A DNA stretch of 64,000 nucleotides from Rhodanobacteraceae bacterium (GTDB lineage: Bacteria > Acidobacteriota > Terriglobia > Terriglobales > Acidobacteriaceae). A model generated the notes under the pieces. That model saw only the letters and a list, made by a program, of their open reading frames with translations. It had not been told where the DNA came from and made no database searches. Position 1 is the stretch's first letter; each line of letters begins with the position of its first letter. Where the stretch lies: the NCBI GenBank assembly GCA_043783275.1, contig JAYVZP010000072.1, forward strand, positions 1,394 to 65,393, read 5' to 3'. The translations under genes were made by a program, and so were the position numbers. Below are positions 34,423 through 45,312 of this stretch, in pieces.

Positions 34423-34512
34423 GGAAGAGTGGCCGAGTGGTTGATGGCTCCAGTCTTGAAAACTGGCGTACCTGAAAAGGTATCGGGGGTTCGAATCCCT
34501 CCTCTTCCGCCA
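34423..34512 (+). tRNA. tRNA-Ser (anticodon UGA), encoded CCA
   Basis: GGAAGAG-TG-GCCGAGTGGTTGATGGC.. Anticodon arm CCAGT-CTTGAAA-ACTGG, long variable arm, T-arm GGGGG-TTCGAAT-CCCTC, acceptor CTCTTCC-G-CCA. Confidence 0.9.
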
Positions 34513-34858
34513 TTCCCCTTATCCCCTCAGTTTCCAACGCCGTTACCGCATCAATCCCCAACAACGATAGGGTGTTCCACGCTAGAGACCGCTAAGGAGC
34601 GTTATCGAGCGTTAGCCCGGTATTCGTCAAAATGGCCGGATAGGAGTAACGGAATGGCTAAAGCGCAAAATAAAAGGTAACGGGGGTTCGGTTTCCACAG
34701 GAAGCCGCCAAGCTAACGGTGGGTGTTACGCTCCGCACATGTTCATTTTCGATCCGCCAAATCCGAGCCCCGAGTTCGTAGCACAGGTGACAAGCTGCTA
34801 GGAAACCTTTGAGAGGATCGTCGCCTTACACCCTGAAGACCCGGAAGGCAACCATCAA

Positions 34859-35374
34859 TTGCGTGTAGCCGCCGCTGCCAGTTCACAGGCATTTGAACAC
34901 TTCCGGGCTATTTTGATTCTTTGTAAGAGTCGCGTGGCAGACGGGAGTGCTATGGCGCTTTTCCGCCCACTCGTGGAGGCTGTTGTGCGAAGTGATTGGA
35001 TTCTACGCTGCGCAACAGAGCAGGAGTTCACGGGCATCTGCAACCGAACTTGCAGCTTCCCTAAATTTAAGGTGATGGCAGACGCCCTTGACAAAGAACA
35101 TGCCCGGTTTGACTATGCCAAAAAACCCTACTTCTCCAGTTTTACGGGTGACGCATTCTTCGTGATGAGCGGTTACGCTCACACCGGCGTCGAGCAATTA
35201 GTGCATCGGATCGACCCGGACGGCACAATTGGGCCAGCCTACAAGGAAAGTCATATGATTCGCCTTCTAAAGAAATCCAAGGAATTGACATTGCGGCACT
35301 TTGCTCTTTTGGCACATGCACGGGGCTTCGAGGACGTCACGAAAGAACTCCTAAACCTTCCAGTTGATTTCTGA
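34859..35374 (+). CDS. Hypothetical helical protein, possibly a DUF5677/AbiV-like (HEPN-like) remnant
   Basis: 171-aa ORF with a TTG start and no ATG. More AT-rich than its surroundings by eye. Motifs AMALFRPLVEAVVRSDWILRC and LRHFALLAH (an Rx6H spacing). The family call is from memory of the motif style only. Confidence 0.35.
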   Translation: MRVAAAASSQAFEHFRAILILCKSRVADGSAMALFRPLVEAVVRSDWILRCATEQEFTGICNRTCSFPKFKVMADALDKEHARFDYAKKPYFSSFTGDAFFVMSGYAHTGVEQLVHRIDPDGTIGPAYKESHMIRLLKKSKELTLRHFALLAHARGFEDVTKELLNLPVDF

Positions 35375-35808
35375 GTTTTGCCCCGAGGTAGCCAACCTTC
35401 CCTTTTCCAGTCCTCACCTGACCAATCTATCCAAAATCAACCGAGCCAACGCCACGCTCTCCGAAACCACATTCAGGAGCCGGGGTGAAGACCGACTGAT
35501 GTTCTCATCCCGCGCCAGCCGCACCGCTGCGATGATTGAGGCTGAAATCATCAAGGTGGAGGCGAAGCGGTCCTTGATGTGTTGCTCTTCTCCCTCCCCT
35601 TAGCTCTCTTCATGACCCCCATGCCTTCGAGTGTAGGCGAATAGAAAACGAAGATGTCCACAGGGGTCCGCGGGTTGCAGCCTAATCGTGTCACCCGTAA
35701 ACTACCCCAGTTAGTTCATCAGAGGAAGCGACGCTACTGCCACGATTTCCAGATTACGAGGCTAACAACCTGCGCCGCCTACTAATCGCTGGTGATATCA
35801 GCGGAGCG

Positions 35809-36480
35809 TTGAGTCTCTATCAAACGTGGTGCCCGCCCACGGGAGGTAAAGTGTTTCAAGATATCGACCGTGCACACATTGACGGACTCTTTGCTGCTCG
35901 TCCTGCGGTACTTGCCAGTATGCCGTCGTCAGATTTCCGTCAAATACAAGTTGTCGTAGTAATGAGGCAGTTGCTTGGTCATGGGGGCCGACCGGAAAAG
36001 CTACTTCCGAGTTCATACCAGTGGCCAAGTCCGATGTCTTTTAAAGCTGCCTTGAACGCGATGCAGAGCAACTACAACTGGAATCGGGATCGGAGCCAGC
36101 TTCGAAGCTGGGGATGGAAGCCACTTTGGCAGTACCTGAAAACATGTGATCCCGAAACCTGTTCCGCTTGCGATGAGGCAAGGCGTTACCTCTACAATGA
36201 CGATGATTTTCCGGGTTCTCCGATCCCTGGGTGCACGAACTCGATGGATGGTTGCCGGTGTCTAGCTATGGGGATGGACCCAAAGGATGGCCAGGCACTG
36301 ATCGATTCAGGAAATTACGCATGTTCTTTTCAGCGCACTGATGGGGCCAGGGCGTCACTGCAGGTGGCCGCGGTCGCCTGTCGCCTTACCGTATCGTTCG
36401 CCGGTCATCGGTCCCCGTTGCTTTGTACGGATAGTTTGGAAGATGCTTTCTGCAACTCACTGTGCGCTGACGCGAGATAG
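35809..36480 (+). CDS. Cys-rich hypothetical ORF, possibly a remnant of a phage Mu-F/SPP1-gp7-like head-morphogenesis C-terminal region
   Basis: TTG start. DPETCSACDEARRYLYNDDDFPGSPIPGCTNSMDGCRCLA resembles the TCxxC...(P)xxCRC motif of that family. The 3' end overlaps the convergent lyase gene by 76 nt, so the true extent is doubtful. Confidence 0.3.
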   Translation: MSLYQTWCPPTGGKVFQDIDRAHIDGLFAARPAVLASMPSSDFRQIQVVVVMRQLLGHGGRPEKLLPSSYQWPSPMSFKAALNAMQSNYNWNRDRSQLRSWGWKPLWQYLKTCDPETCSACDEARRYLYNDDDFPGSPIPGCTNSMDGCRCLAMGMDPKDGQALIDSGNYACSFQRTDGARASLQVAAVACRLTVSFAGHRSPLLCTDSLEDAFCNSLCADAR

Positions 36481-42307: not shown

Positions 42308-42709
42308 GGGGCAGTAAATTTCGCCAGCGTAAACCGGCGGCACCTCACCTGCGACGGTCACCACGGAGTGAATTTTGCAAGGACGACAAATCGCAGTACT
42401 TCTAAAGCGCCTTTACGGCGGAAGATCAGTCGTGATTCTGTATGCCGTATTTGCCGCAGAAGTAATTGTTTTGGCTGCGGTTGTCCACGGGCAGACACCG
42501 CTTCCGGAACCCATGAAGATTCGCGTGGACGCTTCCTATGCCGAGCGGCTGCCGTTTGAGCGAGGGGCCGCTCGATCGGGTGAGAGCGAAATTCGCACCG
42601 GCCTCGTAGCGCGACTGTAGGCTCCAAAGCCTGGGGTGTTGCGCAGCACTTACTGAGTCACGCCGAAACATATCCAGACCGAGCTTGAATTTCCTCTATC
42701 ATTCGCAAA

Positions 42710-43289
42710 ATGGAAGGCGAAAAAACGATATTTATCAGTTGGTCCGGAGAAAAAAGTCTTGCCTTTGCGAAAGCTTTGAAAGACTGAATTCCCGATTGTA
42801 TTCAAGCGGCGAAGCCATGGGTATCTTCGGACGGTATCCCAAAAGGTGCGCCATGGGGTAGGGGCCTCTCCCAGGCACTTCGAACGACATATTTCGGTAT
42901 CTTTAGTCTGACTCCTACCAATCTGACAAATCCCTGGCACCTGTTCGAGGCGGGAGCTATTTCAAAGAAGCTGGACAGCCGGACTTGCACTATCTCCTTA
43001 GGAGACCTTCGCGACTATCTTCGGTTGGGGTGTAGGACCGAGCCGACTACCTGCCCGTGCATCAATCGTGGAATGGTCTCCCTCAGACCTGCCTGTCGCG
43101 GCAGATGACAACATGTCAACGCTCTTGCCTCTGTTCACGTCCATCGCAGAAAGGCAGACGGCCCGCTCTCGAATCGCGATATCAGGCCAATACGCGTTTC
43201 GAGCCCTGACCCGCCTCGATTTGATGCCCGGCGATTTTGCACCAACCGAGAAGTGCTTTTGGCAACAAGTGCTATTTCGAGATAATTGA
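42710..43289 (+). pseudogene. TIR-like domain gene disrupted by an in-frame TGA (42785-42787), with probable 3' frame decay
   Basis: MEGEKTIFISWSGEKSLAFAKALKD*IPDCIQAAKPWVSSDGIPKGAPWGRGLSQALRTTYFGIFSLTPTNLTNPWHLFEAGAISKKLDSRTC.. This matches the bacterial TIR style FISWSGExS..A.AL..WLP..IQ...PW.S..DI.KG..W......L....FGI.CLTP.N...PW..FEAGALSK. The stop sits where the family has Trp. After ~43000 a second frame is open to 43289. Confidence 0.7.
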
Positions 43290-43311
43290 TGTTGAGTCGG
43301 GATTTCCGATA

Positions 43312-45312
43312 ATGGATCGCAAGGATCTAATGCCAATCAAGGCTTATTACAGTGAAGCGGTATCTAGCTTCCTCAAGGATGACGACGAACGTATCCTCGG
43401 TGTTCTGACGCGGGAGCATCATCATGCCCTGGAAGAGCCGCAGCGTTGGGCATGGCTCCAACAGGTATCTATTCTCAAGACGGCCTTGGCTGAGCGACCA
43501 AACGGAAGAATATTTTTAGAGTTCTACATTCCTCGGATGGGTAAGCGAGCGGACGCCGTCCTGTTATTGGAAGGTATCGTCTTCCTCCTTGAGTTCAAGA
43601 TTGGTGCTGCCGAACATTCAGCTAGTGCTTTTGACCAAGTTGAGGATTATGCCCTCGACCTGAAGAACTTCCATGAGGGCAGCCATTCCGTTGCGATTGT
43701 CCCGATATTGATCTCGACCCAGGCGAAGTCAAATCCGCTTTCTGAGCTGATTTTTGCGGATGATTTGGTTGCTAAGCCAATTGGGACAGACGCTGCGGGG
43801 CTCGCAAATCTGATCGACAGAATCCGCACCGAGCAGACCTTTCCAACTATCGACGTTGAAAGTTGGATAGCTAAGGGATATAAGCCGACCCCTACGATCA
43901 TCCAGGCGGCTGAGATTCTGTATCAGACACACAGCGTCGTGGACATCTCGCGATCAGACGCCGACGCCGTGAACCTTGAAGAAACGAGTGCCAGCGTCAG
44001 TAAGGCAATCGATCAAGCTCGCGCAAATCACAGTAAGGCAATCTGCTTCGTGACGGGAGTCCCTGGTTCAGGGAAGACGCTAGCTGGCTTAAATATTGCG
44101 ACGCGCCGCTCTGATGAACATACGGACGAACATGCTGTCTTCTTATCTGGTAACGGTCCGTTGGTTGATGTACTCCGTGAAGCACTCGCCCGCGATAAAG
44201 TTCGACGGGAGGGAGTCAAGAAGACGGTGGCTGAGCGTGAGGTGCGTAGCTTCATCCAAAATATCCATCACTTTCGAGATCAGTACGTCGGCAATAAGGA
44301 CGTCCCAATCGAGAAGGTTGTAGTTTTCGATGAAGCTCAAAGGGCATGGACCCGCGAGCAGGCTTCATCCTTCATGCGGCGGAAACGCGGGCATCTTGAC
44401 TTCGATATGTCAGAGCCGGAGTTTCTTATCGGTGTGATGGATCGCCATCCGGATTGGTGCACGATTGTCTGCTTGGTCGGTGGTGGCCAAGAGATTAACA
44501 CGGGGGAGGCTGGCATCTCCGAATGGATCAGCGCTCTCAAATCTAAGTTTCCCAGCTGGGAAGTCCATGTGTCGCCACGCATCGCACTTCCTGAATACAG
44601 TTCGCAAAGCAAAGTGGAGGGGTTCTTGGCATCGCCAAGAGTTCACTTAAATGAACACCTTCATCTTGCCGTTTCGATGCGCTCATTTAGGGCAGAAGCG
44701 CTCTCCAGCTTTGTCGGTCATATTATCGATAACGAGCCGAAGGCAGCGCAAATTGCTTACAAGGCTATACAAGTGAATTATCCGATCTATTTGACTCGCG
44801 ATCTTCATACTGCAAGAGGCTGGCTGCGTAATCGAGCTCGAGGAACTGAGCGATTCGGTTTGGTCGCATCTTCGGGAGCTCAGCGACTTCGCCCAGAAGG
44901 AATCTACATCAAGGCAGCCATTGAACCAGTGAACTGGTTTCTGAACGATAAAGCAGATGTCCGATCTTCTTATTACCTAGAGGATGTTGCCAGTGAGTTC
45001 GCGGTTCAAGGTCTAGAGCTGGACTGGTCCGGCGTATGTTGGGACGGAGATTTTCATCATTTTGGCGGGAATTGGATTTCTCAAGCCTTCAAGGGAACGA
45101 AGTGGCAGTCCGTGAAGGACGTGTCAAGGCGCCTTTATCTCAAGAATGCATATCGCGTAATTCTGACGCGAGCTCGGCAGGGGATGATCCTCTTCGTTCC
45201 AAGTGGAGACTCATCGGACCCCACACGTCCTCTGTCTTTTTACGATGGCACCTTCGAATATCTCCGCGCGTGCGGAATTCCAGTCCTGGGAGATATAACG
45301 AATCCTGATTAG
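43312..45312 (+). CDS. PD-(D/E)xK-like nuclease + DUF2075 P-loop NTPase (Schlafen-helicase-like / Nhi-like)
   Basis: N-terminal nuclease-like core GKRADAVLLLEGIVFLLEFKIG (D..ExK). Walker A FVTGVPGSGKTLAG, Walker B VVVFDEAQRAW, late motif VILTRARQGMILFVP. More AT-rich than its surroundings by eye. The ORF track starts at 43237. Confidence 0.8.
   Translation: MDRKDLMPIKAYYSEAVSSFLKDDDERILGVLTREHHHALEEPQRWAWLQQVSILKTALAERPNGRIFLEFYIPRMGKRADAVLLLEGIVFLLEFKIGAAEHSASAFDQVEDYALDLKNFHEGSHSVAIVPILISTQAKSNPLSELIFADDLVAKPIGTDAAGLANLIDRIRTEQTFPTIDVESWIAKGYKPTPTIIQAAEILYQTHSVVDISRSDADAVNLEETSASVSKAIDQARANHSKAICFVTGVPGSGKTLAGLNIATRRSDEHTDEHAVFLSGNGPLVDVLREALARDKVRREGVKKTVAEREVRSFIQNIHHFRDQYVGNKDVPIEKVVVFDEAQRAWTREQASSFMRRKRGHLDFDMSEPEFLIGVMDRHPDWCTIVCLVGGGQEINTGEAGISEWISALKSKFPSWEVHVSPRIALPEYSSQSKVEGFLASPRVHLNEHLHLAVSMRSFRAEALSSFVGHIIDNEPKAAQIAYKAIQVNYPIYLTRDLHTARGWLRNRARGTERFGLVASSGAQRLRPEGIYIKAAIEPVNWFLNDKADVRSSYYLEDVASEFAVQGLELDWSGVCWDGDFHHFGGNWISQAFKGTKWQSVKDVSRRLYLKNAYRVILTRARQGMILFVPSGDSSDPTRPLSFYDGTFEYLRACGIPVLGDITNPD

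What the first reader, a model, noticed from the sequence alone, without database searches (positions are those of the whole stretch)
42710..45312. TIR-like gene + PD-(D/E)xK nuclease/DUF2075 ATPase: a candidate two-gene defence cassette, apparently undescribed as a pair and partly decayed
Two co-oriented genes sit in a visibly AT-richer patch inside an accessory island.

Gene 1 (42710-43289) reads as a bacterial TIR domain: TIFISWSGEKSLAFAKALKD-[W]-IPDCIQAAKPWVSSDGIPKGAPW..FGIFSLTPTNLTNPWHLFEAGAISK.

Gene 2 (43312-45312) starts about 20 nt after the last open TIR frame. It combines a restriction-endonuclease-like core (RADAVLLLEGIVFLLEFK) with a DUF2075 P-loop NTPase (GVPGSGKT, VVFDEAQRAW, ILTRARQG). 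That is the module found in Schlafen C-terminal helicases. As far as I recall, it is also the module of the staphylococcal single-gene Nhi nuclease-helicase immunity protein.

TIR domains are NAD+-consuming or signal-producing modules in Thoeris, CBASS, Pycsar and other systems. I know of no described system pairing a TIR with a DUF2075 nuclease-ATPase. The tight spacing suggests one operon. The TIR partner carries a nonsense codon, so this copy may be inactive or running as a solo Nhi-like gene.
Basis: partly seen in the sequence, partly recalled or inferred. Interest (0 to 1): 0.75.

Follow-up and report, generated by a model that had tools for sequence, protein, structure and literature searches.

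The report
Nhi-like defence gene beside dead TIR
An intact single-gene nuclease-helicase phage-defence gene of the already validated "Nhi-like" family lies next to the broken stump of an unrelated TIR defence gene; they are chance neighbours, not a new two-gene system.

Summary

**Gene 2** (most likely 43330-45312, 660 aa) is intact. It has an N-terminal PD-(D/E)xK nuclease domain and a Schlafen-group-3/DUF2075 SF1 helicase domain.
- It matches PADLOC PDC-S41 over its full length (E=5e-288).
- It is a full-length homologue of the experimentally verified single-gene "Nhi-like" defence protein of Bacillus cereus (Millman et al. 2022): 28-30% identity, E=4e-47 and 1e-67.
- That paper's family table already lists Acidobacteria.

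**Gene 1** is only the first ~95 codons of a ~290-aa TIR_2 protein.
- It has a TGA in place of a conserved Trp.
- No homology remains after about 43000, which is 330 nt before gene 2.

**The pair does not recur.**
- 0 of 83 loci encoding gene-2 relatives hold such a TIR within 6 kb.
- 0 of 160 loci encoding TIR relatives hold a gene-2 relative.
- Neither family has a recurrent neighbour.
- Two independently assembled, about 95-96% identical, syntenic loci have deleted the TIR stump altogether and still keep gene 2 intact (dN/dS about 0.3).

**Verdict:** this is a small low-GC islet between housekeeping genes. It holds one live member of a known single-gene defence family and one dead neighbour. 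Interest is low.

The parts
42710..42997 (+). Remnant of a TIR_2-family gene: the first ~95 codons of a protein that is normally ~290 aa. It covers the N-terminal two-thirds of the TIR domain and includes the conserved FEAGA glutamate.
   Evidence: PADLOC TIR-TM E=1e-31. phrog_13899 E=2.9e-30. Family HMM positions 3-93 of 273, E=1.4e-40. Pfam TIR_2 22.6 bits, below the cut-off. Intact relatives have a median length of 289 aa.
42785..42787 (+). In-frame TGA that replaces the family's nearly invariant Trp (W22 of the alignment).
   Evidence: Direct reading. W22 is >=90% conserved in 40 relatives. The same TGA is present in the three aligned related metagenome contigs L084-L086.
42998..43329 (+). 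DNA with no detectable TIR-family homology in any frame. The old TIR frame stays open to 43105. The stretch contains a promoter-like site, TTGGCA-16-GATAAT, at 43259-43286 just upstream of gene 2.
   Evidence: tblastn of 149 relatives and a full-length family HMM find nothing significant. The promoter scan found 4 sites against 2.3+/-1.6 expected, so this is weak evidence.
43330..45312 (+). Intact Nhi-like / PDC-S41 gene, 660 aa. Alternative upstream starts are ATG 43312 and TTG 43237.
   Evidence: PADLOC PDC-S41 E=4.8e-288, profile 3-653 of 657. BLASTP to the verified B. cereus Nhi-like protein E=4e-47, and to its full-length orthologue E=1e-67. The consensus start is MPIKAYY, and ATG 43312 is not conserved. 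dN/dS is 0.28-0.30 against sister alleles.
43330..44034 (+). N-terminal region with a PD-(D/E)xK nuclease core. E64, D75, E88-x-K90 (numbered from 43330) are invariant in 35 homologues.
   Evidence: Invariant columns. AF2 domain model pLDDT 80.4, pTM 0.72, with alpha-beta-beta-beta-alpha-beta topology. Foldseek PDB hits are VC1899, Cdn1, McrC, Can2, NucS, Hjc and the DdmD nuclease, with E from 8e-4 to about 0.1.
44035..45201 (+). SF1 helicase / P-loop domain (Schlafen group 3 helicase, formerly DUF2075). Walker A is G243-T250 and Walker B is D334-E335.
   Evidence: Pfam PF09848 E=2.2e-80. The full-length AF2 model has mean pLDDT 64. Its best Foldseek PDB hits are human SLFN11 and SLFN14, then RecD, Pif1 and Upf1.
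42520..43288 (.). Segment absent from sister alleles. It contains the whole TIR remnant. In those alleles the adjacent 42449-42519 is inverted.
   Evidence: Two independent assemblies show an identical junction: L001 (Logan) and L251 (ENA).

Best explanation
The locus is a small, horizontally acquired, low-GC islet between a ROK regulator gene and an amidohydrolase gene. It carries two unrelated single-gene defence modules.

**Live module: gene 2, 43330-45312.** It belongs to the 'Nhi-like' nuclease-helicase family, which PADLOC models as PDC-S41. By inference from the verified family member and from Nhi, one polypeptide acts as both sensor and effector:
- The SF1 helicase/ATPase domain engages phage DNA.
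- The N-terminal PD-(D/E)xK domain cleaves that DNA, which blocks phage DNA accumulation.
- For the verified B. cereus protein, phages escape by losing a DNA methylase. This suggests that phage-type DNA modification, or replication intermediates, mark the target.

**Dead module: the TIR remnant, 42710-42997.** It is the pseudogenised 5' third of a ~290-aa stand-alone TIR_2 protein. That protein belongs to a large, often prophage-borne family. The remnant has no functional link to gene 2.

**Shown:** the domain identities, the homology to the verified protein, the decay of the TIR gene, the lack of co-occurrence, and the dispensability of the TIR stump.

**Inferred:** the anti-phage activity of this copy and its molecular mechanism.
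For: **Gene 2 belongs to the family**
- PDC-S41 matches over the full length, E=4.8e-288.
- Identity is 30% with E=4e-47 to the first 399 aa of the verified Nhi-like protein (B. cereus FSL H8-0482, SG141, marked verified). The alignment spans the E..D..ExK motif, Walker A, LSGNGPLVDVL and FDEAQRAW.
- Identity is 28% over aa 38-632 with E=1e-67 to that protein's 89%-identical full-length orthologue. This orthologue itself hits PDC-S41 at E=1e-113.
- Millman's family table lists Granulicella mallensis, Terriglobus roseus and other Acidobacteria. A G. mallensis DUF2075 protein is 77% identical to gene 2.
- The nuclease fold and invariant catalytic residues are present. The helicase fold is present.

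**Gene 2 stands alone**
- Neighbours of 75+75 relatives differ in size, strand and family. There is no recurrent partner and no TIR.
- Relatives sit on a conjugative-element fragment, beside M78/DUF4411 genes, and on Bacillus and Persicobacter plasmids.

**The TIR gene is dead and unrelated**
- It has a TGA at codon 26 and homology only to positions 3-93 of 273.
- Among loci encoding TIR relatives, 0 of 160 hold a gene-2 relative.
- Intact relatives have a median length of 289 aa, and their only recurrent neighbour is an integrase-like ORF (14 of 263 neighbours).
- Sister alleles lack 42520-43288 and keep an intact gene 2, with dN/dS about 0.3.

**Acquired DNA:** GC is 0.51-0.53 against about 0.59 elsewhere, and the flanking genes are housekeeping.

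**Mechanistic precedent:** the Nhi abstract and discussion and the methylase escape mutants for Nhi-like.
Against: - No experiment exists on this protein or on any Acidobacterial member.
- Identity to the verified protein is only 28-30%.
- PADLOC lists PDC-S41 as an untested candidate.
- No other recognisable defence gene lies within 10 kb.
- Hundreds of Terriglobia homologues are >=74% identical. This could also fit a conserved cellular role.
- Substitutions in the TIR stump (6 synonymous, 6 non-synonymous; pN/pS 0.31) are too few to demonstrate neutral decay.
- The full-length structure model has only moderate confidence (pLDDT 64).
- The Foldseek E-values for the nuclease domain are marginal.
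Confidence: 0.85

Rival explanations
1. Ancestral two-gene system. An intact TIR protein and the nuclease-helicase once worked together, for example with a TIR NADase or signal generator coupled to the Nhi-like effector. This copy is a decayed relic that now runs on gene 2 alone.
For: The two genes are co-oriented and adjacent in one low-GC patch. The TIR stump persists with the same lesion in several related contigs. Its pN/pS of 0.31 does not prove neutrality.
Against: - 0 of 83 and 0 of 160 loci in the reciprocal neighbourhood tests.
- Both families are otherwise solitary, with variable neighbours.
- TIR homology ends about 330 nt before gene 2.
- Sister alleles deleted the stump without harm to gene 2.
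- The verified Nhi-like protein works as a single gene.
Confidence: 0.03
2. Gene 2 is a cellular DNA repair or recombination nuclease-helicase of Terriglobia, not an immune gene. The PADLOC and Nhi-like similarity would then reflect only a shared fold.
For: The immediate neighbours are housekeeping genes. Many Acidobacterial homologues are >=74% identical. dN/dS is 0.3. PDC-S41 is untested.
Against: - Homology to a phage-verified protein runs the full length, not just across a domain.
- Genomic position is not conserved, and neighbours differ in nearly every locus.
- Amidohydrolase orthologues at 70-84% identity have different neighbours and no gene-2 relative next to them.
- Relatives occur on plasmids and next to type IV secretion genes.
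- GC is low relative to the host.
- Distribution is patchy across phyla.
Confidence: 0.09
3. The TIR fragment is still expressed, through UGA read-through by tRNA-Trp, as a truncated TIR protein with residual NADase or regulatory activity.
For: The stop is a single G-to-A change of a Trp codon. The frame stays open to 43105. The conserved FEAGA glutamate is retained. The same allele occurs in five contigs.
Against: The product would lack the last third of the TIR domain and the whole C-terminal half (model positions 94-273). Sister strains deleted it. There is no evidence of recoding signals.
Confidence: 0.02

Closest known systems
Nhi-like single-gene defence system (Millman et al. [quoted passage not shown]
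   Same: It has the same architecture: an N-terminal PD-(D/E)xK nuclease plus a DUF2075/SF1 helicase in one polypeptide. Sequence homology runs the full length, E=4e-47 and 1e-67. The nuclease motif, Walker A and B, LSGNGPLVDVL and the NAYRVILTR(A/G)R motif are shared. It is a stand-alone gene. The published family table lists Acidobacteria.
   Different: Identity is only 28-30%. Gene 2 is about 50 aa longer. It comes from a different phylum. This copy is untested.
PADLOC PDC-S41 (a single-gene 'phage defence candidate' from guilt-by-embedding, Payne et al. 2024 preprint)
   Same: The HMM matches over the full length, E=4.8e-288, profile 3-653 of 657. Relatives at 51-59% identity match it equally well.
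   Different: None at the sequence level. PADLOC treats it as untested, whereas the model also captures a close orthologue of the verified Nhi-like protein.
Nhi (SERP2475) of Staphylococcus epidermidis (Bari et al. 2022)
   Same: It has the same domain logic, a PD-(D/E)xK nuclease plus an SF1 helicase that overlaps DUF2075. It is a single-protein sensor and effector that limits phage DNA accumulation.
   Different: There is no family-level sequence match. The PADLOC Nhi model hits only the P-loop stretch, E=5e-4. Millman et al. likewise report no sequence identity between Nhi and Nhi-like.
Human Schlafen group 3 proteins (SLFN11, SLFN14): C-terminal helicase domain
   Same: These are the best structural matches to the helicase half, and they share the Pfam family PF09848.
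   Different: The nuclease is different. Schlafens carry an N-terminal tRNA-cleaving Slfn RNase fold, whereas gene 2 carries a restriction-endonuclease-like PD-(D/E)xK domain.
Stand-alone bacterial TIR_2 proteins (PADLOC model 'TIR-TM', PHROG 13899); compare Thoeris ThsB and Pycsar PycTIR
   Same: The remnant's first ~90 residues align to this family at E=1e-31 to 1e-40, including the conserved SWSG and FEAGA motifs.
   Different: The window copy is a truncated pseudogene. The family is only weakly related to ThsB (2 of 40 relatives at about 1e-4) and to PycTIR (1 of 40). No ThsA-type or cyclase partner was seen: the immediate neighbours were clustered by sequence, not scanned for those families. 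I could not determine which PADLOC system uses the 'TIR-TM' model.

Membership tests
Nhi-like (Millman 2022) / PADLOC PDC-S41 | Full-length sequence homology to the experimentally verified protein or the family model | tested here: met
   PDC-S41 E=4.8e-288 over 3-653 of 657. BLASTP to the verified protein (first 399 aa available) gives 30% identity, E=4e-47. BLASTP to its 89%-identical full-length orthologue gives 28% identity over aa 38-632, E=1e-67.
Nhi-like (Millman 2022) / PADLOC PDC-S41 | N-terminal PD-(D/E)xK nuclease domain with catalytic residues | tested here: met
   E64, D75, E88-x-K90 are invariant in 35 homologues. The domain model has pLDDT 80. Foldseek hits are all restriction-endonuclease-fold nucleases, with marginal E-values of 8e-4 to 0.1.
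Nhi-like (Millman 2022) / PADLOC PDC-S41 | C-terminal DUF2075 / SF1 helicase with Walker A and B | tested here: met
   PF09848 E=2.2e-80. GVPGSGKT and VVFDEAQ are present. SLFN11, RecD, Pif1 and Upf1 are the structural matches.
Nhi-like (Millman 2022) / PADLOC PDC-S41 | Acts as a single gene, with no obligatory partner | tested here: met
   There is no recurrent neighbour among 75 upstream and 75 downstream genes of relatives. The sister allele lacks the upstream TIR stump.
Nhi-like (Millman 2022) / PADLOC PDC-S41 | Protects against phage | not testable with these tools
   Only the B. cereus member is marked verified. No data exist for this copy.
Nhi (S. epidermidis SERP2475 family) | Sequence membership in the Nhi family model | tested here: not met
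   The PADLOC Nhi model gives E=5e-4 and covers only aa 236-351, around the P-loop. The resemblance is in architecture only.
TIR_2 stand-alone TIR family (PADLOC 'TIR-TM') | Significant match to the TIR domain model | tested here: met
   PADLOC E=1e-31. Family HMM E=1.4e-40. Pfam TIR_2 is below its cut-off at 22.6 versus 28 bits because of truncation. 40 of 40 intact relatives pass.
TIR_2 stand-alone TIR family (PADLOC 'TIR-TM') | Complete, uninterrupted coding sequence (~250-300 aa) | tested here: not met
   There is a TGA at codon 26. Only model positions 3-93 of 273 are present. No C-terminal homology appears in any frame.
Thoeris | A ThsB-type TIR gene next to a ThsA effector (SIR2 or Macro/TM) | tested here: not met
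   Gene 2 has no ThsA hit in PADLOC. Relatives of the TIR match the ThsB models only weakly, 2 of 40 at about 1e-4.
Proposed new TIR + DUF2075 two-gene system | Recurrent co-location of the two families in unrelated genomes | tested here: not met
   0 of 83 gene-2 loci hold the TIR within 6 kb, even at relaxed thresholds. 0 of 160 TIR loci (1.06 Mb) hold a gene-2 relative.

The most novel reading that the evidence does not exclude
In the lineage that donated this islet, an intact TIR protein and the Nhi-like nuclease-helicase formed a lineage-restricted cooperative pair. For example, the TIR might have acted as an NAD+-depleting back-up triggered when the nuclease-helicase is inhibited. The window would then preserve its relic. 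The pair would be too rare to appear among the 243 related loci sampled.
Probability: 0.03. Interest if true: 0.5.

Novelty: new member of a known kind. Interest (0 to 1): 0.12.

Why it matters
It matters little for discovery. Any PADLOC or DefenseFinder run would flag gene 2, and the proposed new system does not exist as a recurrent unit.

Three modest points are useful:
1. The locus adds an Acidobacterial (Terriglobia) member, under purifying selection, to the Nhi-like family. That family's mechanism and target recognition are still poorly understood.
2. PADLOC's 'untested candidate' PDC-S41 appears to be the same family as the experimentally verified Nhi-like system. This is a database redundancy worth fixing.
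3. The locus is a clean natural example of defence-gene turnover. One module is kept and the neighbouring one is caught at two stages of decay, nonsense plus truncation and then outright deletion, in co-occurring strains.

Tried and rejected
- **Word-indexed protein search with the TIR stump.** It found only 2 hits: the same pseudogene ORF, and a 128-aa fragment. It was replaced by an exhaustive profile search, which found 7,638 clusters at E<=1e-10.
- **PDB sequence search with gene 2.** No hit.
- **NCBIfam.** Nothing meaningful for either gene.
- **Literature.** 'PDC-S41' and 'TIR-TM' have no usable mentions. I could not establish which PADLOC system the 'TIR-TM' model belongs to. The bacterial Schlafen paper concerns the RNase domain, not this helicase family.
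- **Search for an 'empty site' or a defence hotspot between the ROK and amidohydrolase genes.** Amidohydrolase orthologues at 70-84% identity are not syntenic, so nothing could be concluded.
- **Flanking repeats or att-like sites around the islet.** Only short, chance-level repeats were found.
- **Rfam.** Only three tRNAs in the window.
- **dN/dS on the TIR stump.** There are too few substitutions to decide.
- **A faint match of frame +0 at 43119-43166 to the family's C-terminal helix.** It has i-E=6 and was rejected as noise.
Full report
**1. What is in the sequence**

The region holds two co-oriented features on the + strand, in a patch of GC 0.51-0.53 within a window that otherwise runs 0.58-0.64.

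The first feature is a reading frame that starts at ATG 42710. It reads MEGEKTIFISWSGEKSLAFAKALKD, then TGA (42785-42787), then IPDCIQAAKPW...FEAGAISKKLDSRTCTISLGDL..., and stays open to 43105.

The second is a long intact ORF that ends at 45312.

The flanking genes are ordinary: argininosuccinate lyase, a CarboxypepD_reg/outer-membrane barrel protein, a ROK regulator, an amidohydrolase, a rhamnosidase and a GH16 enzyme. This is therefore a ~3 kb islet between housekeeping genes, not part of a large accessory island.

**2. Gene 2**

Domain evidence:
- Pfam gives PF09848 (Schlafen group 3 helicase, formerly DUF2075) at E=2e-80.
- PADLOC gives PDC-S41 at E=4.8e-288 across the whole model. The Nhi model matches only the P-loop, E=5e-4.
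- In an alignment of 35 homologues, the N-terminal residues E, D and E-x-K of the RADAVLLLEGIVFLLEFK stretch are invariant.
- An AlphaFold model of the first 240 residues (pLDDT 80, pTM 0.72) has the alpha-beta-beta-beta-alpha-beta core.
- The Foldseek PDB hits for that model are, almost without exception, restriction-endonuclease-fold nucleases: VC1899, Cdn1, McrC, Can2, NucS, Hjc and the DdmD nuclease. Their E-values are marginal, from 8e-4 to about 0.1.
- The full-length model (pLDDT 64) is closest to the human SLFN11 and SLFN14 helicase domains, then to RecD, Pif1 and Upf1.

The family consensus begins MPIKAYY. The ATG at 43312 is ATC in L001, L084 and L085. The true start is therefore most likely ATG 43330, giving 660 aa.

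**3. Gene 2 belongs to a known, verified family**

Millman et al. 2022 describe a stand-alone protein with an N-terminal nuclease and DUF2075. They named it Nhi-like because it shares architecture, but no sequence identity, with staphylococcal Nhi.

Their supplement gives the verified protein: SG141, Bacillus cereus FSL H8-0482, 611 aa, 'Nuclease-helicase', marked verified.

Comparison with gene 2:
- Gene 2 aligns to the available first 399 residues at 30% identity, E=4e-47. The alignment runs through the nuclease motif, Walker A, LSGNGPLVDVL and FDEAQRAW.
- An 89%-identical full-length orthologue lies on a B. cereus plasmid. It aligns to gene 2 over residues 38-632 at 28% identity, E=1e-67.
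- That orthologue itself matches PDC-S41 at E=1e-113, but matches PADLOC's Nhi model only at 2e-6.

The published family table lists Granulicella mallensis MP5ACTX8, Terriglobus roseus and other Acidobacteria. A G. mallensis DUF2075 protein is 77% identical to gene 2. That these two are the same gene is my inference.

PDC systems are, by their authors' account, untested candidates derived from genes embedded in BREX, DISARM or type I RM systems.

**4. Gene 1**

With the stop read as Trp, the stump gives these scores:
- PADLOC 'TIR-TM': E=1e-31, profile 3-87 of 293.
- phrog_13899: E=2.9e-30.
- Pfam TIR_2: 22.6 bits, below the 28-bit cut-off.

An exhaustive profile search shows a very large family: 7,638 clusters at E<=1e-10. 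The proteins are typically 250-300 aa, with the TIR domain at the N-terminus and a variable C-terminal half. All 40 relatives tested pass Pfam TIR_2 and match TIR-TM.

Against an HMM of those relatives, the window matches positions 3-93 of 273 (window 42728-42997, E=1.4e-40). Nothing else matches in any frame. The stop sits on a >=90% conserved Trp.

The gene is therefore a pseudogene twice over, by nonsense mutation and by loss of its 3' two-thirds. About 330 nt of unrelated DNA separates the end of TIR homology from gene 2. That stretch includes a promoter-like site at 43259-43286, which is weak evidence.

**5. Is the pair a system?**

Forward test. I examined 83 loci encoding relatives of gene 2 (51-98% identity), from Acidobacteriota, Alphaproteobacteria, Bacteroidota, Planctomycetota, Chloroflexota and others, each with up to 6 kb of flank.
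- None contains this TIR family, by tblastn or by HMM, even at E<=20.
- Immediate neighbours vary in length from 70 to 1,265 aa and lie on either strand.
- The most frequent Pfam families among 75 upstream and 75 downstream neighbours are HTH domains (4 of 75) and AAA_22 (3 of 75). No TIR appears in the lists.

Reciprocal test. I examined 160 loci encoding TIR relatives, 80 from metagenomes and 80 from IMG/VR, 1.06 Mb in total. None contains a gene-2 relative. Their only recurrent neighbour is an integrase-like ORF, 14 of 263 neighbours.

**6. Population evidence**

Contigs L084-L088 were retrieved because they encode the same 82-aa stump ORF. The three that I aligned (L084-L086) carry the stump with the same TGA and the same truncation at about 98% identity.

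Two longer, independently assembled syntenic contigs are 95-96% identical to the window over 14 kb: L001 from Logan and L251 from ENA. They share an identical junction in which 42449-42519 is inverted and 42520-43288, the whole stump, is missing. Gene 2 remains intact in both.

Gene 2 differs from these alleles at 34-35 of 1,983 sites, with dN/dS 0.28-0.30. The stump shows 6 synonymous and 6 non-synonymous changes, too few to interpret.

**7. Mechanism (inferred)**

Three lines of precedent inform the mechanism:
- Nhi is a nuclease-helicase that acts as both sensor and effector and prevents phage DNA accumulation. [quoted passage not shown]
- Phages escape Nhi-like by losing a DNA methylase.
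- Nhi-like has been classed among the PD-(D/E)xK nuclease/SF1 helicase defence systems.

By analogy, gene 2 most likely uses ATP-driven SF1 translocation to engage phage DNA and its PD-(D/E)xK site to cut it. No step has been shown for this protein.

**8. Verdict**

Gene 2 is a new member of a known, validated single-gene family. Gene 1 is debris from an unrelated defence gene.

Noticed in passing
window 34423-36480: tRNA-Ser(tga) at 34423-34512 is followed by a lower-GC patch (0.53-0.54). The patch holds a DUF6988 ORF (34859-35374) and a 223-aa ORF (35809-36480) with no Pfam hit. This may be a small tRNA-linked islet.
   Followed up: no
window 42449-43288; L001:2734-2804; L251:11448-11518: There is an allelic rearrangement. 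In two independent assemblies of sister strains, the 71 bp at 42449-42519 is inverted and the next 769 bp is deleted, with an identical junction in both. Contigs that keep the segment come from ENA sample accessions (ERZ27237506-ERZ27237520) numbered close to L251's (ERZ27237523), so both alleles may co-occur.
   Followed up: partly
L250:5881-7716 (B. cereus plasmid NZ_CP137769.1, WP_001106176.1): A close orthologue (89% identity) of the experimentally verified Nhi-like protein matches PADLOC's 'untested' PDC-S41 model at E=1e-113 over its full length. It matches PADLOC's 'Nhi' model only at 2e-6. PDC-S41 therefore appears redundant with a validated system.
   Followed up: partly
P0123-P0271; loci L090-L249: The TIR family of the stump is very large: 7,638 clusters at 50% identity, and 151 hits in IMG/VR. 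PADLOC names the model 'TIR-TM', yet 147 of 149 of the best relatives have no hydrophobic TM-length segment. Their C-terminal halves vary; single examples carry wHTH/TrmB, Sigma70_r4, LytTR or TPR. The genes often sit next to integrase-like genes.
   Followed up: partly
L003:1-8000 and L002:8074-9790: Relatives of gene 2 sit in mobile or defence-like contexts. One lies next to VirB4/VirB3/TrbC conjugation genes, an HTH/M78 peptidase pair and a Fic protein. Another lies upstream of an M78 peptidase and a DUF4411 gene.
   Followed up: no
L004 (JAYVDT010000086.1): A 1,968-bp contig is 98% identical at protein level to gene 2 but is binned in a 'Rhodanobacteraceae' MAG. Every other close relative is from Terriglobia, so the contig is probably mis-binned.
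   Followed up: no
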